DNA of 64,000 nt, taken from a virus. The notes beneath the pieces are model-generated. The model did not search any database. It was not told where the DNA came from and worked only from the letters and a program-made list of their open reading frames with translations. The DNA lies in IMG/VR virus record IMGVR_UViG_3300032018_000004, positions 1 to 64,000 of that record, one strand, 5' to 3'. Positions 12,313-41,497 of this stretch are shown piece by piece (the first letter of the stretch is position 1; each line of letters begins with the position of its first letter). Both the position numbers and the translations under genes were made by a program.

Positions 12313-13213
12313 TTTGTTCCGAATTCAATAATTTGTTAAGGATATTGTATTGATACTCAATTTCTTTATGCTTCTTTTCGTGACACTCCTTGCAAAGAGT
12401 CATCCCGTTCTTTATATCCCAAAGAACATCGCATTCTAAAGCTTTATCCAAAGACTCTATATTGTTGTCAAATAATATCTGAATAAATGGGACTAAATGG
12501 TGAGCATTTAAATCGCCACCAGTAGTTTTCCCACAATCCTGGCAGATATAAATATCTCTTTTGTATACTTCATTTCTCCAAGTTTTATAGGCTGAAGAAC
12601 CCCTAATTAAATCAATTAACTTCTTCTCTTTCCTCTTCCAATTAGTTACGTCAAAACCCCTAAATTTTGCTTGAGAAAGAGACATCTTATCTTTTGATTC
12701 TTTAGAGTGTTTCTTTCCTTTCATGCCACGACAATGATTTTCTCCAGACGGTATTCTTGGGTCATCATTCGCCGTTAATCCAGCATTCCATCCAGGTATT
12801 CCTTTATGGCCGTCACTCATTCTCTTCAAAGTCTCTTCAGACCGATCCCGATGATGGTGAGTCTTTATATATTTATTTCCGTATTCAGCAAGTTCCCCAC
12901 ATCCACAAGCACACAGTGTTCTTTGAGACTCTTTCTCATTGTTCCGTGTCTCTATTTGTTTGTTTCTTTTATCTCTTTGGACATCATTCCATTTGGTCCC
13001 TAGTCTTGATTGTCTAATTTTTTCTTTAGCTTCATCAGAAAGCTTCTTCCCTTTCATAGAGGAGTTCTTCAATAATGTCTCAGATATTTTTCTTTTAGAC
13101 TCTTCTGAATGTTTAAAATTATTTGCTCTGTGGCAATGCCCTCTGGCATAATCTACATGAACTAATGTACCACAACCGCACTTGCATATTTTTTTCTTAA
13201 TTCTTTTACCCAT
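12296..13213 (-). CDS. Free-standing HNH homing endonuclease with NUMOD3-like repeats
   Basis: CxCGCG and KHSEESKxKIS repeats; C-terminal CQDCG...AHH...NGMTLCKECH. Confidence 0.9.
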   Translation of the reverse strand: MGKRIKKKICKCGCGTLVHVDYARGHCHRANNFKHSEESKRKISETLLKNSSMKGKKLSDEAKEKIRQSRLGTKWNDVQRDKRNKQIETRNNEKESQRTLCACGCGELAEYGNKYIKTHHHRDRSEETLKRMSDGHKGIPGWNAGLTANDDPRIPSGENHCRGMKGKKHSKESKDKMSLSQAKFRGFDVTNWKRKEKKLIDLIRGSSAYKTWRNEVYKRDIYICQDCGKTTGGDLNAHHLVPFIQILFDNNIESLDKALECDVLWDIKNGMTLCKECHEKKHKEIEYQYNILNKLLNSEQNDTTP

Positions 13214-31155: not shown

Positions 31156-31231
31156 TGGAGCTGGCAGCAGGAATCGAACCCGCGACAATCTACTTACAAG
31201 GCAGAGGCTCTACCGACTGAGCTATACCAGC
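31156..31231 (-). tRNA. tRNA-Thr (UGU)
   Basis: GCTGGTA/TGCCAGC acceptor, TAGCTCAGTCGGTAGAGC D-arm, CTTGTAA anticodon loop, GGTTCGATTCC T-arm, encoded CCA. Confidence 0.95.
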
Positions 31232-31234
31232 CAT

Positions 31235-32971
31235 TTATATTAGCCTTACCCTTGGTGTCGCTTGCTCATAGAAACACATTCTTAAAGCAGCAAATTTATC
31301 GTCACTATTCCCATTTATTTTCTTCTTTACTGTCTTTTTATCGCTTACTTTAATTTTTCCAGAATTTTGATCTTCTCCATAGTCATATGCCATCATCTGC
31401 TCTTTCAATTCTGGATCATCTGGAATCATTGCGGAAGGCTCTTTCTTTAACCATTCGGCAACTTTCCACGCAAGCTCGTCGCGAATCAGACCAAATCTGC
31501 CTATATCACACTTCTTATCGCTTGGAGCAGAAACATAAATCTTTTTTACATTAAAGTGTTGACGAATCATTTCTTTATGACAAATTGGGCATTTAAAGAA
31601 ATCTTCGTCTGTATATGTTTTATCAACACCTTCGCATTCAGAGTTACAGCATTTCCAGTAAAACATTCTGGAAATTTTTGGAGGGATAGCAGCGCCAATT
31701 CCGTCGCTTTCTACATTGATCTGTTGACCGTCTAATTCAGCAGATATCTTTGCTATTTTGTCGGCAGATAAATCAACATCAATCCCACGCCACATGTCGA
31801 AGCCAGCGACATAGTTGCCATACTTCTTAGCTACACAACTATTGTCAGTTCCTTCATCTGCTATATCACAACCAAGAATTGGCTTGATTCCCTTAATTGC
31901 ATCTTTCCCGTATTGAGCGGTATATAATTTCCATCTTGTTACCGCATTATCAATATCGGTTTCGGAGAATAGAGAATTTGCAGTGCTGGTGGGATACAGG
32001 CCCAACACTTTATACGAAAATGCAGAATTAATTATCCTGCGCCATCCACCTTCAAGCGGTGGATACTCTTTGCCAGATGGAGATATGGCAATACAACCAA
32101 CTAAAAATTCCGGTACTTCAAAACAAGATGAATCTGGCTCTTCATCTTCCTTTAGAGGAATTGTCCAATCGTAAATACGCTCTACTGTTTTATCTCTCGA
32201 AACAGCCCCAGGAATTACATTTTCTCCGGTCATGACATTCGGATGAGCGAACGCGCTCAGGATTATTACATTTGCCCTTTGGTTCTTTACTTGATCATAT
32301 ATCCATCCAGAGCGTCTTTTAGGGTTATAAAGATTTAACTGCCTACTCCCATCACCTGATAAACAACCATCTTCCCCTCTAAATACCTCATTCGGGATGG
32401 CATCGCATTCATCATTCACAAAAAGTAAAAATGGGGCGTGAGAACCTGAGAATTTAGACTCTCTCTCCTCTTCGCTGCCGGAAGTAGGAACAGTCTTACC
32501 AAGAATAAAATGTTTGTTACTTCCTTCTGATTCTTCACCTTCTTTGTAACTTACATCATCTGTTATTTTAAGAGTGAGAATTTTATCTGTCTTGAAAAGT
32601 TTTCTGTTGGCAAGAACCATATCATTGATTTCGCTAAACAGTTTGCTTTTCAAATTCTCCTCTGGTGGTGCAGCAGTAGCAATTACCTGTGACTGTGGGA
32701 AGCACTTGTACCACCATGCAGAAACAGCGGCAGCGATGTACGTCTTCCCAACTCCCGTGGCTGATTGGCAAACAGTTACTTTGTTGTCCCTGACCGACTC
32801 TGCAATGATGACAAGATCAGGAGGGATATTTGCAATCCCTAATTCCTCTCTAAAGAATCCAACGGGATCGCTCTGGTATTGTGTTAGATCATTTCCAAGA
32901 GAGTTTTTAATCTCATCTTCGCCAAATGCCTTAATCAAGCTATCTAAGGCGGCATCGTCAAATTCAGTCAT
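31235..32971 (-). CDS. Terminase large subunit
   Basis: DPVGF, SATGVGKT Walker A, FVNDE Walker B, LGCDIADEGTD and ESDGIGA nuclease motifs. Confidence 0.93.
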   Translation of the reverse strand: MTEFDDAALDSLIKAFGEDEIKNSLGNDLTQYQSDPVGFFREELGIANIPPDLVIIAESVRDNKVTVCQSATGVGKTYIAAAVSAWWYKCFPQSQVIATAAPPEENLKSKLFSEINDMVLANRKLFKTDKILTLKITDDVSYKEGEESEGSNKHFILGKTVPTSGSEEERESKFSGSHAPFLLFVNDECDAIPNEVFRGEDGCLSGDGSRQLNLYNPKRRSGWIYDQVKNQRANVIILSAFAHPNVMTGENVIPGAVSRDKTVERIYDWTIPLKEDEEPDSSCFEVPEFLVGCIAISPSGKEYPPLEGGWRRIINSAFSYKVLGLYPTSTANSLFSETDIDNAVTRWKLYTAQYGKDAIKGIKPILGCDIADEGTDNSCVAKKYGNYVAGFDMWRGIDVDLSADKIAKISAELDGQQINVESDGIGAAIPPKISRMFYWKCCNSECEGVDKTYTDEDFFKCPICHKEMIRQHFNVKKIYVSAPSDKKCDIGRFGLIRDELAWKVAEWLKKEPSAMIPDDPELKEQMMAYDYGEDQNSGKIKVSDKKTVKKKINGNSDDKFAALRMCFYEQATPRVRLI

Positions 32972-33187: not shown

Positions 33188-33375
33188 TATTTATTCTCTT
33201 TAATTTCTGAAGAATCATCACGAAGAAAAGTAGGAATTACATTCTCCATCTTAGCAAAATGCAAGAAATTATTATCCGTGGTATGAAATGTCATTATTCC
33301 CTTTTTCCACATCTCCCAATCTTGTTCAACTTCAAGATATAGAATCCTATCAGTTCCTTTTTCAAAAAATCTCAT
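33187..33375 (-). CDS. Hypothetical protein
   Basis: Overlaps terminase small subunit stop. Confidence 0.5.
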   Translation of the reverse strand: MRFFEKGTDRILYLEVEQDWEMWKKGIMTFHTTDNNFLHFAKMENVIPTFLRDDSSEIKENK

Positions 33376-34070
33376 TTATTTCCACCTATGCGCCTAGCTA
33401 ACGAGACCCGAATGTTGTCTTGTGTTTCTTGGGGGAGCATTGCAAGAAACTGCTTAAAATCGACTGGCAATGTTCTCTCTGCATCTTTATCAAATAACCC
33501 TAAATTCTTGGAAAGAGCATCAAGGCCATAATTCTTCTGGAGCAATCGATAACTTTTTGGATTCCCCTTTCGGTCATATACAATATCTTGGATTGCTGCT
33601 GCTTGTTCGCGTGTCAATTTCTGTATTGGCTTTAGAACACCTTCTTCATCATAATAATCTTGGAGATTGCTATAGGCAACCGAAGCATATTCAGTTAAGA
33701 CACGCTCTTGAGTGATTTGAAGCTTCTTGGTGATCTTCTTCTGCCTATTCTCAATTTCCCGTTTCACACGCGGGATTGTGAGAAGCCTTCGTCCAAACAC
33801 AGCGGCGTTCCAAATAGGCCATCCAGCCTCTTGCGCTGCCTTTTCCTCGTTGTAGTGAATCACATATTCATTACAGAATCGCTCAACCTTGAAGGGGAGT
33901 TCATCCTTGTCTGTGATGCCATCTAATTCTTTGACTGCTGCAATATATTCTTCAGGTTCGTATGGTTGAGTTTGAATTATCTCTAATTCAGTGTCAATAT
34001 ATTCTTGTTTTACAGCAGTTTTTTCTTTTTTAGAGACTCTTTTTGGTTTTTCAATCATTAAATTCTTCAA
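33372..34070 (-). CDS. Terminase small subunit
   Basis: RFCNEY...AAQEAG...ITQERVL.E...AYSN...LSKNLGLF. Confidence 0.9.
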   Translation of the reverse strand: MKNLMIEKPKRVSKKEKTAVKQEYIDTELEIIQTQPYEPEEYIAAVKELDGITDKDELPFKVERFCNEYVIHYNEEKAAQEAGWPIWNAAVFGRRLLTIPRVKREIENRQKKITKKLQITQERVLTEYASVAYSNLQDYYDEEGVLKPIQKLTREQAAAIQDIVYDRKGNPKSYRLLQKNYGLDALSKNLGLFDKDAERTLPVDFKQFLAMLPQETQDNIRVSLARRIGGNK

Positions 34071-34697: not shown

Positions 34698-35042
34698 CTA
34701 ATCTCCTGAAATATTATTCTCTTCTCCGATATTTACATTGCATTCCTTATTCCCATCCCAAATCATTGTCCCATATTCCCAATCACCTTGGTTTAGGTAG
34801 TGGCAAAATCCATTCTGCTCTTGAGGCTTCTTTAAGACTAAACTCCAGTACGGGCAATAGTGCGTTTCTTGGCTATACGATGAAACTGAGTGGGTGAAAT
34901 AGCATTTTGTCCCAAGTGGGATGTAGGTTGGGTTTGATTCGATAGAAGTTTTAATGTTTTTATCTCTTCCTGGGCATGTATTACAATCTGAGTGGTCATA
35001 GTATGGGTCATTTCTATTAAAGCATTGTCTTGTGCAGGACAT
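34698..35042 (-). CDS. Cys-rich hypothetical phage protein
   Basis: IPLGTKCY...CPYW...FCHYL...WD..KEC; GGAGG RBS. Confidence 0.65.
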   Translation of the reverse strand: MSCTRQCFNRNDPYYDHSDCNTCPGRDKNIKTSIESNPTYIPLGTKCYFTHSVSSYSQETHYCPYWSLVLKKPQEQNGFCHYLNQGDWEYGTMIWDGNKECNVNIGEENNISGD

Positions 35043-35068
35043 TTAAATCCTCCAGTTCAATTTCACAT

Positions 35069-35097
35069 ACTATAATCACAATATATTCTTTTGTCAA
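35069..35097 (-). promoter_or_regulatory. sigma70-type promoter
   Basis: TTGACA-N17-TATAGT. Confidence 0.7.
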
Positions 35098-35132
35098 GTC
35101 GTTTAAATATCTTTTCTAGCCTATACAATCAC

Positions 35133-35160
35133 TTATCGGAATATTTCATTAAAAACTTTA
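35133..35160 (-). promoter_or_regulatory. sigma28-type promoter at the head of the late strand
   Basis: TAAAGTTT-N12-TCCGATAA. Confidence 0.72.
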
Positions 35161-35211
35161 ATTTATTTTGTTTCTTTAGTTGACTTTTCTAGCCTAGTGA
35201 TTACTTTTCGT

Positions 35212-35238
35212 TTAAGTTTTCGGTAGAAATGCCGATAA
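35212..35238 (+). promoter_or_regulatory. sigma28-type promoter, divergent, facing ncRNA candidate
   Basis: TTAAGTTT-N11-GCCGATAA. Confidence 0.7.
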
Positions 35239-35244
35239 GGTGTA

Positions 35245-35575
35245 GAAATCCATCATTCCTTGTACTTAATGGTGAACAGACGGTTCTTGATTTTAACTTA
35301 CTGATCCGTACCACGCCGGAAGTGGTGAAAAAGTAATGCGAGGTTGCGCTTATCCGGCAAAAGAATCACACAGCCCTCAAGACGTAATATGGGACGGGGT
35401 TACGGAAGAGATAATCAGCAAATAGCTGGTGTTAAATCCAAAACAGGCTTACGTATACGATGCCGTGAAAGCGGTGAGTGCTTGGGACACTTTAAAAACT
35501 CGCCTGATAATTCGTGTGATTCTTTCTTAGCTTGTTGACTTCTATTCCTATCGGAAGGGATAACAAGGAGTTCTT
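35245..35575 (+). ncRNA. Large structured non-coding RNA candidate
   Basis: GC-richer intergenic block with many complementary segments (see findings), directly after a promoter. Confidence 0.55.
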
Positions 35576-35717
35576 AATTAGTCGTTGTATAAATAATATA
35601 GGTTGTATAGTAAAAGAATATAAACTACTATCTACTTAATATTATATACATCGGTGCGTAAGTCCCGAAATAGGTTTAAAATTAGATAATAACAAATACT
35701 AAAAGAAAGAGAAGTAT

Positions 35718-36329
35718 ATGGCAAAGTGGAAAACTAAGGAAGATAGACAAAAATTTTATAACTCTATAGAATGGAAAGCTATCAAGGAGAATCTGTTTTC
35801 TGTAAGAGGACGGAAATGTGAAATTTGCGGGAAGACAGAATCAATCCAAGTTCACCACTTAACTTATGACAGGTTTGGCGGAAACGAAGAATTAACCGAC
35901 CTAAAAATATTGTGTGGGTTTCATCACATGGAAGAGCATGGACTTATTTTCAATAACAATAGTCGCTGTGTTAGCCTTGGGTTAATGTACGTTGACATTG
36001 TTGACGATCTAGTTGCTGGATTGTTGTTGTCTCAAATTATTTATTGGCATCTACCAGGGAAAACCGGCCAAACAAAATTAAGAATCCTGAAAGAAGACAG
36101 GAAATGGCTTGCTAAAAGAAGACAAGATTGGTTTGATGAATGTAGAATAACTATTCGTCAATATGTCAGAGCAATTAAAATCTTGGAAGATATGAATATT
36201 GTTGTGACAAAGATTTTTAAATTTAACGGAGAGCCAACCGTACACATTTCATTAAATCAAGATATATTTTTAGGGTTAGTAGAAAAGTATTTAAACAACC
36301 AACCAGTTGAGAATGACGATGGCGAATAA
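35718..36329 (+). CDS. HNH domain fused to replication-initiator-like winged HTH
   Basis: CEICG...VHHLTY...LC..HH then AGLLLSQIIYW...W..E..I....RAIKIL. Confidence 0.75.
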   Translation: MAKWKTKEDRQKFYNSIEWKAIKENLFSVRGRKCEICGKTESIQVHHLTYDRFGGNEELTDLKILCGFHHMEEHGLIFNNNSRCVSLGLMYVDIVDDLVAGLLLSQIIYWHLPGKTGQTKLRILKEDRKWLAKRRQDWFDECRITIRQYVRAIKILEDMNIVVTKIFKFNGEPTVHISLNQDIFLGLVEKYLNNQPVENDDGE

Positions 36330-36711
36330 GTTTTACGACAGCAAAGAGTGGGCAGTTATAAAGAATGACCTTTTCATGATAAGAGGGAAGAAGTGCGAGA
36401 TTTGTGGGAGCACTGTGAGAATAAATGTCCACCACTTGAGTTATAAGAATTTTGGCGGGAATGAAGAACCAGAAGATTTGATCGTTCTATGCAGGATATG
36501 TCATGAAGGCGAACATGGGATTGTAAGACCAACTACAATTAGTAAAACTGCTAAAAGGAAAGCAGCGAGAAGAGAACGGCTTCGCCTTAAAAGAATACGG
36601 CAAAGAGAAGGCCGTGCTGAATGGGAATTGTCGCAAGAAGTTAAGAGAAAGAGATTTGAAACGAAACTAATTATAAGAAGAGTTGGATCAGACGATATAA
36701 TTAGAAAATAG
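36307..36711 (+). CDS. HNH endonuclease with Arg-rich C-terminal helix
   Basis: CEICG...VHHLSY...LCRICH; KRKAARRERLRLKRIRQR. Confidence 0.85.
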   Translation: MRMTMANKFYDSKEWAVIKNDLFMIRGKKCEICGSTVRINVHHLSYKNFGGNEEPEDLIVLCRICHEGEHGIVRPTTISKTAKRKAARRERLRLKRIRQREGRAEWELSQEVKRKRFETKLIIRRVGSDDIIRK

Positions 36712-37047
36712 GAGGCACTATGTTTAACTACCTATGCAGAAAATGTAATACAGTGTTTAGTTCAGTCCAAGGAACAATAGCTAATATCTGCCCATGTTGT
36801 GGTGGAGATGCAGTGAGGGTGGAATGAAAACTAAAATAATACCACTCCTTATTTTTACTATTTGCCTTAAACCTAAATCAAGAACCCTTGGATGCCTCTT
36901 CTCAATTCTATCTTCCACGGTCAAAGCAAGAAAATAAGAAACAAATGGCGATCTATCCGAATTTCACGCTTGACATTTCTGAAATAAATGGTAATACTGA
37001 GTTGACTGGTGGTAGCATAAGATTAAGCTTTAGATTTTAGGATAATT

Positions 37048-41154: not shown

Positions 41155-41497
41155 AAATGCCGAACCATTGCACTTACAAGAATTGCCCAAAATATCTTGT
41201 TTGCTCAGTTAAGATCGAGCCGGGATGTGTTCCGGTATGTAAGCCGGTAGAGAATAGGGAGTTGGTGAACATTGCAGCTCAAATATTAACCTTGCTGTAC
41301 ATTGCAGAATAGGGGGAGAAAATGAAAAGCCGATACTACCAGGCCAGGATAAAAGGTACAGATATATGGATTCGACTATTGACGTATTTCCCGGATTCTG
41401 ATAAATATCTATGTAGGACGGGAAAGCGAAAAGAGTTTTTCTGGTCAGACGAATTAACAGACTTTTGCGATTAAAAACAAATTAAGGAGATTGAGAG

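What the first reader, a model, noticed from the sequence alone, without database searches (positions are those of the whole stretch)
35212..36711. ~330-nt structured ncRNA candidate with its own promoter, followed by two paralogous HNH proteins
Seen: right after a sigma28-type promoter lies a GC-richer block with many complementary pairs: CATCATT/AATGGTG (35251/35268), GATTTTAAC/GTTAAATC (35289/35431), CTGAT/ATCAG, TCCGTA/TACGGA (35305/35401), GCCGGA/TCCGGC (35315/35353), CAGGC/GCCTG (35444/35502), a CCGT-GAAA-GCGG GNRA hairpin, CTTGTT/AACAAG, and a 12-bp AAAGAATCACAC/GTGTGATTCTTT pairing (35360/35514) that crosses the TCCGTA helix (pseudoknot or alternative fold). Downstream are two small HNH proteins, one with an Arg-rich helix. 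Established: IscB/HEARO systems pair an HNH protein and Arg-rich helix with a large RNA, but these ORFs lack RuvC. Inference: an uncharacterised RNA-HNH module, or a replication/packaging RNA at the early/late switch point.
Basis: partly seen in the sequence, partly recalled or inferred. Interest (0 to 1): 0.8.

Follow-up and report, generated by a model that had tools for sequence, protein, structure and literature searches.

The report
Conserved structured late phage RNA gene
A non-coding RNA gene of about 330-440 bases with its own late promoter is kept, with matching base-pair changes, in two distantly related uncultivated phages, and the nuclease genes beside it look like later lodgers, not partners.

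Summary
A FliA/sigma28-type promoter (35212-35239, one of 8 such sites in the window) is followed by about 470 nt with no gene, then by two paralogous HNH genes.

Folding energy alone gives no support for an RNA (z about -1.2). No Rfam family matches. Close strains show too few changes to test pairing.

A covariance model of 35355-35530 then found a homologue in the only known relative phage (terminase 55% identical). That copy has the same promoter type and 13 collinear shared motifs over about 410-450 nt. On the structure-guided alignment, 11 of 46 pairs changed on both sides and still pair.

In the relative, the RNA gene lies elsewhere, has no co-oriented gene after it, and is far from any HNH gene. 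None of 27 HNH-homologue loci carries it.

So this is a real, conserved, structured non-coding RNA gene expressed with the late genes. Its core is about 330 nt, about 440 nt with the 3' domain. The proposed RNA-HNH (IscB-like) module is not supported. HNH1 is absent from some near-identical strains and behaves like a free-standing homing-type gene.

The RNA's function is unknown. Support rests on two lineages only.

The scan had noted this same stretch once more from an overlapping window (e1-6117239), not on other DNA.

The parts
35212..35239 (+). FliA/sigma28-type promoter of the RNA gene (-35-like box 35212-35219, -10 box GCCGATAAG 35231-35239)
   Evidence: one of 8 sites sharing the TTAAAGTTT-N11/12-CCGATAAG pattern, here with one mismatch. 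Both boxes are unchanged in L016 and X4 although the spacer and surroundings vary. The same motif precedes the homologue in G001. It matches E. coli FliA promoters as printed in PMC4183435 (passages).
35246..35358 (+). 5' domain of the RNA: hairpin ACGG/CCGT (35280-83 / 35306-09) and hairpin GCCGGA/TCCGGC (35315-20 / 35353-58)
   Evidence: ACGG/CCGT is invariant in G001, 4 of 4 pairs. The second helix reads GCCATGA/TCATGGC in G001. Model R2 aligns L007:1343-1455 collinearly but weakly (11.5 bits). The start at about 35246 is inferred from the -10 box.
35360..35525 (+). Core domain closed by the 12-bp long-range helix (35360-71 / 35514-25). Inside are a GCCC/GGGG hairpin, a long hairpin with loop AAAUA (35414-35430), and a three-way junction closed by CAGGC/GCCTG (35444-48 / 35502-06)
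   Evidence: Models R1 and R3 hit G001. Eleven of 46 pairs changed on both sides and still pair. Mapping from fixed shared motifs without gaps: long-range helix 9 of 12 kept with 5 two-sided changes; junction helix 5 of 5 kept with 2 two-sided changes.
35462..35475 (+). GNRA-tetraloop hairpin (stem CCGT/GCGG, loop GAAA)
   Evidence: In G001 a hairpin ACTC-GTAA-GAGT sits at the same offset. Two pairs changed on both sides and the loop is still GNRA. It also appears in G001's own MFE and centroid folds.
35531..35579 (+). Hairpin (35531-35567) followed by a U-rich stretch. Possibly a weak terminator or pause that would end a core RNA of about 330 nt
   Evidence: MFE -13.1 kcal/mol. G001 has a hairpin followed by UUUUAUUU at the matching place (-6.7 kcal/mol, z -2.1). 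The terminator scan did not call it (0 found). In close strains C>T changes keep G-U pairs on the + strand only.
35580..35682 (+). AT-rich 3' domain of the RNA gene, ending in a 21-nt motif (35662-35682) shared 20 of 21 with G001
   Evidence: The motifs are collinear. A scan of viral contigs with the motif finds only G001. Positions 35589-35713 have no change in L016, and the X13 piece 35590-35713 has one.
35718..36329 (+). HNH1: HNH nuclease domain (about 1-78) fused to a replication-organiser-type winged-helix domain (about 88-197)
   Evidence: PHROG HNH families, plus phrog_6493 'DnaD-like helicase loader' at 5e-14 on residues 88-197. An Atlas structure match to a 'putative Replication protein' cluster, TM 0.92 by query, is a lead only. 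The gene is cleanly absent in X4 (joint 35708>36309) and X13. Against L016, 31 of 45 changes fall at third codon positions.
36319..36711 (+). HNH2: small HNH endonuclease with a basic tail
   Evidence: Pfam HNH 3.5e-7. Present in every close strain seen. The middle of the tail is replaced in P0002 and X4.
36720..36827 (+). 35-aa zinc-ribbon ORF, the last gene of the inserted block
   Evidence: Zn_ribbon_8 at 2.9e-6, below Pfam's cut-off.
35133..35161 (-). Leftward sigma28-type promoter of the terminase-side operon, back to back with the RNA promoter
   Evidence: It is homologous to the one in L005.
36970..36998 (+). Sigma70-like early promoter (TTGACA-N17-AATACT) in front of the methylase gene. 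It marks the right edge of the block that the relative lacks at this site
   Evidence: Read. L005 has TTGACATTTC at the matching place. This is my reading by eye; MAFFT did not align the two.

Best explanation
Positions 35212-35682 are a self-contained gene for a structured non-coding RNA.

Transcription: a FliA/sigma28-type promoter, the class that also precedes the terminase, capsid and tail genes, starts transcription near 35246.

Fold: a 5' domain with two hairpins comes first. A core follows, closed by a 12-bp long-range helix, and holds a three-way junction and a GNRA hairpin. A hairpin with a U-rich tail comes next and may end a species of about 330 nt. An AT-rich 3' domain ends in a 21-nt conserved motif, giving about 440 nt in all.

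Conservation: the same gene, with the same promoter type, exists once in the only known relative phage. There it lies at another place and has no co-oriented gene after it. The RNA is therefore the unit under selection and should act in trans as a folded RNA. A protein-binding scaffold or decoy made late in infection is my guess (inferred, not shown).

The HNH genes are not its partners. They are free-standing, homing-type endonuclease genes lodged 35 nt after the conserved end of the RNA gene, and are probably expressed by read-through from the RNA promoter. HNH1 is an HNH domain fused to a replication-organiser DNA-binding domain, and it comes and goes among near-identical strains.

Shown: promoter motif class, lack of coding, purifying selection, homology, kept pairing. 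Inferred: transcription itself, the RNA ends, action in trans, homing.
For: Non-coding:
- There are stops in all six frames, also under single stop reassignments.
- Strain changes show no codon periodicity, and there are 1-nt indels.
- 0 of 9 stop-free frames match Pfam or PHROGs at E<=1.

Selection:
- Against L016, the GC block differs at 16 of 330 positions and the AT-rich part at 4 of 147.
- HNH1 third codon positions differ at 31 of 204. Fisher p = 4e-6, run with 20 of 472 for the leader.

Promoter:
- 8 sites share the motif.
- The other 7 lie 6-90 nt from the next ORF; this one lies 479 nt from HNH1.

Homologue:
- R1 hits L007:1448-1642 at 21.6 bits, E 0.0026 over 260 kb; the next best hit scores 8.8 bits.
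- The same promoter type lies upstream.
- 13 motifs are collinear, with 70% identity over aligned bases.
- Two motif scans of viral contigs return only that contig.
- There is one copy in each of the 2 genomes.

Structure:
- On the model-guided alignment 96% of cells pair.
- 11 of 46 pairs changed on both sides, against 0-5 in slid controls and 0 of 500 shuffles.
- RNAalifold recovers the same helices with 11 compensatory pairs.
- Mapping from fixed shared motifs without gaps gives 5 of 5 pairs for the junction helix, 2 of them two-sided; controls give 1-2.
- G001's own fold contains three of the helices.

Independence from HNH.
Against: - Folding energy is ordinary in both phages. z is -1.2 to -1.3 in the window and 0.02 in G001.
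- Only two diverged lineages exist, and the covariation count rests on an alignment fitted to the model.
- On the structure-blind MAFFT alignment only 1 pair changes on both sides, and 147 of 500 shuffles reach that.
- The long-range helix in G001 is A/U-rich, and slid registers give 5-9 pairs against 9 in register.
- Among close strains, changes are not depleted in predicted helices: 9 of 18 fall in paired columns, 5 kept and 4 broken.
- The genome search with R1 missed the G001 copy.
- The terminator scan called no terminator.
- No RNA data exist. Transcription, the RNA ends and any trans action are inferred.
Confidence: 0.6

Rival explanations
1. RNA-HNH partnership. The RNA guides, activates or is bound by the HNH proteins, for instance through the basic tail of HNH2 and the GNRA hairpin, as an IscB/HEARO-like or N/boxB-like pair.
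For: The RNA and HNH2 are adjacent in all four close lineages seen: the window, L016/X6, X4 and X13. HNH2 has a Lys/Arg-rich tail. The GNRA hairpin is invariant in close strains and kept in G001.
Against: G001 has the RNA without any neighbouring HNH. None of 27 HNH-homologue loci matches the RNA model, and 23 of the 24 that hold an upstream ORF have gaps of 182 nt or less. There is no RuvC and no HEARO hit. The basic stretch of HNH2 is swapped for another sequence in P0002 and X4 while the RNA stays the same.
Confidence: 0.1
2. Primer or origin RNA. The transcript forms a persistent RNA-DNA hybrid and primes DNA replication, as ColE1 RNA II or the T4 R-loop origins do (comparison recalled, not read here).
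For: The RNA strand is purine-rich (GC skew +0.19, AT skew +0.28 at 35325-35474). A G cluster (GGAC-N-GGGG) is conserved in both phages. An AT-rich conserved stretch follows it. In the window the gene sits at the point where the two gene arms diverge, beside a protein with a replication-organiser domain.
Against: In G001 the gene lies about 11 kb from the divergence point and from the initiator-like gene. The promoter belongs to the late class. HNH1 is dispensable. No iterons are conserved; the GTTGTATA repeat is broken in L016.
Confidence: 0.1
3. Cis-acting leader. The 470 nt are the 5' untranslated region of the HNH operon and limit or time nuclease expression by attenuation or by masking the ribosome site, as in T4 homing endonuclease genes.
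For: T4 endonuclease genes use late promoters and RNA hairpins that hide the ribosome site (PMC2988022, passages). A fold of 35246-35745 pairs 35258-35267 with the HNH1 start region; unpaired probability is 0.04 or less at 35713-35717. A hairpin with a U-rich tail follows the core.
Against: The G001 copy has no co-oriented gene to regulate. The predicted start-codon pairing is broken by 35714 G>A in L016 with no compensating change.
Confidence: 0.08
4. A DNA-level site read as DNA, not RNA: a cos/pac site for the terminase (with HNH help) or a single-strand initiation signal.
For: In the window the element lies between the terminase-side operon and HNH genes. Small HNH proteins next to terminase genes help packaging in cos phages (PMC12967558, abstract and passages). 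The sequence is strongly conserved.
Against: In G001 the element is about 14 kb from the terminase genes, and no HNH gene lies near them there. Pairing includes many G-U pairs, which would be A-C mismatches on the other strand. The promoter is conserved and points into the element. Contigs of other samples run through it.
Confidence: 0.07

Closest known systems
Large phage-associated structured RNAs of unknown function (GOLLD, ROOL; Rfam families; their biology is recalled, not read here)
   Same: A multi-helix non-coding RNA several hundred bases long, encoded by a phage, with conserved junctions and loops and covarying stems, and no known function.
   Different: No sequence or structure match to these or to any of 4227 Rfam families, in the window or in G001. 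It is smaller (about 330-440 nt). It is known from only two phage lineages and carries a FliA-type late promoter.
HEARO / omega RNA with IscB
   Same: A long structured RNA next to a gene with an HNH domain. HEARO was named for that association (PMC9755519, search listing and abstract only).
   Different: The proteins here lack RuvC and are 130-203 aa. The RNA lies upstream of the gene with its own promoter. The association is absent in the relative phage. Rfam gives no HEARO hit.
Free-standing homing endonuclease genes of T4-like phages (seg and mob genes)
   Same: Small HNH genes sit between conserved genes, are present or absent among close relatives, and are expressed late (PMC2988022, passages). 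HNH1 shows exactly such a clean presence/absence.
   Different: The neighbour here is an RNA gene, not a protein gene. HNH1 carries a replication-organiser winged-helix domain as its likely DNA-binding part. Neither cleavage nor homing has been shown.
Packaging-associated HNH proteins (HK97 gp74, Skunavirus HrdP)
   Same: A small HNH protein encoded close to terS and terL and, by promoter type, expressed late (PMC12967558, abstract and passages).
   Different: The HNH genes here are transcribed away from the terminase operon. The relative with 55% identical terL has no HNH near its terminase genes. PHROG matches are to generic HNH families.
phi29 pRNA (Rfam family; its role in packaging is recalled)
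   Same: A phage-encoded structured RNA that works in trans in a virion-assembly step, which is one possible role here.
   Different: No Rfam pRNA hit. The length is different. This phage has a TerS/TerL packaging system.

Membership tests
IscB / HEARO (omega RNA) system | Effector protein with a split RuvC domain as well as HNH | tested here: not met
   HNH2 (130 aa) reaches Pfam's cut-off for HNH only. HNH1 (203 aa) has sub-threshold HNH-type matches only: PF01844 at E 0.02, 15.5 bits against a cut-off of 21.4, and AI2M-like_HNH at E 0.14. No RuvC family appears in either.
IscB / HEARO (omega RNA) system | RNA matches the HEARO / omega RNA family | tested here: not met
   cmscan of the window at gathering scores, and of 34900-35800 at E<=10, gives no such hit.
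IscB / HEARO (omega RNA) system | RNA and nuclease gene stay together in relatives | tested here: not met
   G001 has the RNA alone. None of 27 HNH-homologue loci matches model R3.
Group I intron carrying a homing endonuclease gene | Group I ribozyme core, and a host gene split into two exons | tested here: not met
   No Intron_gpI hit even at E<=10. A promoter lies upstream and no exon reading frame is present.
FliA/sigma28-type promoter | TAAAGTTT, 11 nt, GCCGATAA | tested here: met
   35212-35239 fits with one mismatch in the -35 box. There are 8 such sites in the window. E. coli FliA promoters are printed in PMC4183435.
FliA/sigma28-type promoter | Transcription depends on a sigma28-family factor | not testable with these tools
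   No Sigma70_r2 or r4 domain is found in the 81-kb record. The factor would then be the host's or a divergent one, and the host is unknown.
Structured non-coding RNA gene (general criteria) | No coding capacity | tested here: met
   No ORF is shared between the window and G001 copies.
Structured non-coding RNA gene (general criteria) | Helices kept through compensatory changes in homologues | tested here: met
   11 of 46 pairs on the model-guided alignment. Checks from fixed shared motifs agree. It is not seen on the structure-blind alignment, and only two lineages are available.
Structured non-coding RNA gene (general criteria) | Folds more stably than shuffled sequence | tested here: not met
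   z is -1.3 to 0.0.
Structured non-coding RNA gene (general criteria) | A discrete transcript exists | not testable with these tools
   No listed sequencing run that holds the stretch is on record as RNA.
Free-standing homing endonuclease gene | Nuclease gene present or absent at one fixed site among near-identical genomes | tested here: met
   HNH1: the X4 contig joins 35708 to 36309 and X13 runs from 35713 into the HNH2 start. The window, L016 and X6 hold the gene.
Free-standing homing endonuclease gene | Site-specific cleavage of the empty site, and gene conversion | not testable with these tools
   Needs an enzyme assay or mixed infections.
Packaging-type HNH (HK97 gp74 / HrdP) | Conserved partnership with the terminase genes across relatives | tested here: not met
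   The relative with 55% identical terL and 54% identical terS has its only HNH relative (33% identity) about 100 kb from its terminase genes.

The most novel reading that the evidence does not exclude
This RNA founds a new class of large structured phage RNA that is a working part of a late process. It could be an RNA subunit of an assembly or packaging machine, or a folded decoy against a host defence. It would also be conserved enough to serve as the homing target of HNH endonuclease genes, which would make it the first free-standing RNA gene known to be used that way in a phage.
Probability: 0.15. Interest if true: 0.85.

Novelty: new variant of a known kind. Interest (0 to 1): 0.62.

Why it matters
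Few large structured RNAs are known from phages, and none of them has an understood function. This one has a defined promoter class, so its timing can be predicted. It has a compact multi-domain fold with conserved junctions and loops. It also provides a natural comparison: the same gene sits at two different genomic places, once alone and once followed by endonuclease genes. That makes it a tractable case for asking what such RNAs do.

The finding also shows that a gene-free, G+C-richer island behind a phage promoter can be a real RNA even when folding energy is unremarkable.

The HNH1 fusion joins a nuclease domain to a replication-organiser DNA-binding domain. Its clean gain or loss beside the RNA gene gives a testable example of homing next to an RNA gene.

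The limits are clear. Only two diverged lineages are known, the host is unknown, and there is no expression data.

Tried and rejected
Rfam: nothing was found for the window. For G001 only sub-threshold chance-level hits appeared. ARAGORN finds only tRNA-Thr at 31156-31231.

Coding readings were rejected. No frame is open under single stop reassignment. Stop-free frames have no Pfam or PHROG match. tblastx of the intergenic region against all loci matches only L016.

A target for antisense pairing was not found. The best complementarity of the leader to the rest of the 81-kb record is 14 nt at E 0.12.

Repeats inside the leader are broken in close strains, so I do not read them as binding sites (CGGAAG.GATAA twice, GTTGTATA twice).

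A minus-strand sigma28-like site at 35549-35580 loses its -10 box in all relatives.

Masking of the start codon is not upheld by L016.

Searches that found no further relatives:
- blastn of the window element and of the G001 element against the phages collection
- a 32-nt pattern in viral contigs
- terL, terS, HNH1 and HNH2 scans of viral contigs, which gave only G001 and distant HNH loci
- a genome-contig scan with P0002, which gave 2 distant loci
- a tblastn of HNH2 against the phages collection, which gave 40 records, all below 60% identity; I opened the best one and saw no similar leader there

Expression: no listed holder of the stretch is on record as RNA.

In X3 the stretch 35005-35652 had no cover, and short pieces there had loose ends. 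I draw nothing from that.

L016 and X6 share the same differences, so I count them as one lineage.

The genome search with R1 did not report the G001 copy, although cmsearch did. R3 found it.

I made no literature search that could find an unnamed RNA. Novelty is therefore stated against Rfam 15 and the sequence collections searched, not against all print. Supplementary files were not opened.
Full report
SETTING. The window is the first 64 kb of an 80,974-bp IMG/VR virus record of about 33% G+C. IMG/VR classes it as linear, and CheckV puts it at 86% complete.

Genes to the left of the finding lie on the minus strand:
- terL, 31235-32971
- terS, 33372-34070 (Pfam Terminase_2, 4e-22)
- three small ORFs
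- a Cys-rich 114-aa ORF, 34698-35042

Genes to the right lie on the plus strand:
- HNH1, 35718-36329
- HNH2, 36319-36711 (Pfam HNH, 3.5e-7)
- a 35-aa zinc-ribbon ORF
- a C5 methyltransferase gene from 37048

The finding therefore covers the right part of a 675-nt divergent intergenic region plus the two HNH genes.

OBSERVATION. The block 35250-35550 is 41-47% G+C, against 27-28% on each side.

The promoter belongs to a real motif class. CCGATAA occurs 14 times against 5.85 expected. Eight of those sites have a TTAAAGTTT-like box 11-12 nt upstream. This is the pattern of E. coli FliA promoters as printed in PMC4183435 (passages). Five of the eight face the tail, capsid and terminase-side genes on the minus strand.

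The other seven sites lie 6-90 nt from the next ORF. The site at 35212-35239 lies 479 nt from HNH1. Its boxes are unchanged in strains whose spacer and surroundings vary. No sigma-factor domain was found in the record.

FIRST TESTS WERE NEGATIVE OR NEUTRAL.
- Rfam gave nothing at gathering scores. At E<=10 it gave only one chance-level microRNA match, on the minus strand outside the block.
- Folding energy is no better than that of shuffled sequence. z is -1.34 for 35212-35580. For 35246-35575 it is -1.16 on the plus strand and -0.93 on the minus strand.
- Only the segment bracketed by the 12-bp repeat stands out, at z -2.6 on both strands. That repeat is one of about 6 in the window, where 2.3 12-mer pairs are expected.

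The stretch is non-coding.

CLOSE STRAINS. Contigs from other sediment, groundwater and soil runs, and one JGI contig (L016), hold the region at 94-97% identity. L016 and X6 share their differences, so I count them as one lineage.

Divergence from L016 by segment:
- GC block: 16 of 330 (4.8%)
- AT-rich part: 4 of 147 (2.7%)
- HNH1 overall: 7.4%
- HNH1 third codon positions: 31 of 204 (15%)

A Fisher test gave p = 4e-6; I ran it with 20 of 472 for the leader. HNH1 itself is more diverged than its flank, so recent co-conversion does not explain the conservation. The non-coding stretch is under purifying selection.

These strains cannot test the fold, however. Of 18 substitutions, 9 fall in columns paired in the window's own MFE structure, where 58% of columns are paired. 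Five keep the pair and 4 break it.

The strains also show that HNH1 is optional. An X4 contig joins 35708 directly to 36309, and an X13 contig runs from 35713 into the HNH2 start. The window, L016 and X6 contain HNH1.

THE RELATIVE PHAGE AT THE SAME SITE. One IMG/VR contig (G001, 144,548 bp) has a terL 55% identical and a terS 54% identical to the window's. Its divergent junction is syntenic. The leftward sigma70-like and sigma28-type promoters align. By eye, the rightward TTGACATTTC promoter recurs at window 36970; MAFFT did not align it.

Between those promoters G001 has 255 nt of unrelated hairpins. The window has about 1.8 kb: promoter, leader, HNH1, HNH2 and the zinc-ribbon ORF. At this site the whole block is therefore an insertion.

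THE TURN. A covariance model of 35355-35530 (R1, built from the window and L016) was searched over all 260 kb held. It hit L007:1448-1642, which is G001 positions 12473-12667, at 21.6 bits and E 0.0026. The next best hit scored 8.8 bits.

Reading that locus shows:
- a sigma28-type promoter of the same pattern at L007:1309-1341
- about 410 nt without a shared ORF
- the same run of short motifs as in the window

Thirteen motifs occur in the same order in both, from the -10 box to a 21-nt 3' motif identical at 20 of 21 places. Identity is 70% over aligned bases. Two pattern scans of 2.9 million viral contigs return only this contig. A second model for the 5' domain aligns collinearly but weakly (11.5 bits). 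A three-sequence model (R3) finds exactly one copy in each of the two genomes and nothing else at E<=1, apart from a 15.5-bit chance-level hit. Homology is secure.

STRUCTURE. On the model-guided alignment, 96% of cells pair. Eleven of 46 pairs changed on both sides and still pair. Slid controls give 0-5, and 0 of 500 shuffles reach 11. RNAalifold run freshly on that alignment returns the same helices.

Such an alignment leans towards the model, so I ran two further checks.

(a) Strands that abut invariant motifs can be mapped without gaps.
- The junction helix CAGGC/GCCTG becomes CAAGT/ACTTG: 5 of 5 pairs kept, 2 changed on both sides, controls 1-2.
- The 12-bp helix keeps 9 of 12 pairs, 5 changed on both sides. 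Its G001 form is A/U-rich, and slid registers give 5-9 pairs, so this helix is weaker evidence.
- ACGG/CCGT is invariant.
- GCCGGA/TCCGGC becomes GCCATGA/TCATGGC.
- The GNRA hairpin changes its stem but keeps a GNRA loop.

(b) G001's own fold, made without reference to the window, contains three of these helices.

Two results count against the structure. On the structure-blind MAFFT alignment, which misaligns the 3' half, only one two-sided change is seen. G001's folding z-score is 0.02.

I judge the fold supported, though on two lineages only.

Both copies have a hairpin with a U-rich tail just after the core, and a GTATAG hairpin in the 3' domain. That fits a core species of about 330 nt plus a longer one of about 440 nt. 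No tool here can show the RNA ends.

THE HNH GENES. In G001 the flanking genes are on the other strand and no co-oriented gene follows the RNA. G001's only HNH relative (33% identity) lies at 128.7 kb, directly abutting its upstream gene.

I examined 27 loci with more distant HNH homologues. Of these, 24 hold an upstream ORF, and 23 of the 24 have gaps of 182 nt or less. None matches the RNA by blastn or by model.

The proteins lack RuvC. HNH1 is an HNH domain fused to a winged-helix domain of the kind found at the N-terminus of phage replication organisers (phrog_6493 at 5e-14; Atlas structural lead). It is under purifying selection. HNH2 is mosaic in its basic tail.

Together with the gain and loss of HNH1, this fits free-standing homing-type endonuclease genes. 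In T4 such genes sit beside conserved genes and are expressed late (PMC2988022, passages). Packaging-type HNH proteins are the other known kind (PMC12967558, abstract and passages). That reading fits less well, because the relative has no HNH by its terminase genes.

VERDICT. This is a real, conserved, structured non-coding RNA gene with a late-class promoter. Its function is unknown. The neighbouring HNH genes are lodgers, not partners.

Noticed in passing
window 14962, 17738, 25323, 34275, 35133, 57405 (minus strand); 35232, 62283 (plus strand): Eight near-consensus FliA/sigma28-type promoters sit in front of late genes, a TnpB-like gene and the RNA gene. No sigma-factor domain is found in the 81-kb record. 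The same motif occurs in the relative G001.
   Followed up: partly
window 35718-36329 (HNH1), residues about 88-197: An HNH nuclease domain is fused to a replication-organiser (DnaD-like / O-like) winged-helix domain. In X3, and in a minor X4 contig, the winged-helix part is preceded by unlike sequence, so the fusion may be a recent chimera.
   Followed up: partly
window 36521-36661 (HNH2 tail): The basic middle of HNH2 is replaced by a different basic sequence in P0002 and in X4, while both ends stay nearly identical. This looks like mosaic recombination inside a 130-aa gene.
   Followed up: no
protein P0002: NCBI names the closest HNH2 relative as coming from a 'Candidatus Doudnabacteria bacterium' MAG (24-kb contig). 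That host hint sits oddly with flagellar-type promoters and may reflect a phage contig binned into the MAG. The host is unknown.
   Followed up: no
L005:5265-5627: The relative phage encodes a 120-aa protein with a GGQ motif, like the peptidyl-tRNA hydrolase domain of release factors, between the junction and terS. The motif reading is by eye; no family search was run.
   Followed up: no
L005:4145-4400 (reverse strand view): Where the window has the RNA-HNH block, the relative has about 255 nt with a 12-bp G+C-rich hairpin, a second hairpin and a perfect inverted repeat of about 15 bp. Their function is unknown.
   Followed up: no
window 34722-34959 and 36823/36824: The X4 strain replaces 236 nt inside the Cys-rich ORF with 182 other letters and has 121 extra letters after the zinc-ribbon ORF. 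The junction region is a mosaic hot spot.
   Followed up: no
window 41328-41468 (plus strand): This is the only window homologue (57% identity) of a gene flanking the RNA in G001. No RNA copy lies beside it in the window, so the RNA gene has moved between the two phages.
   Followed up: partly
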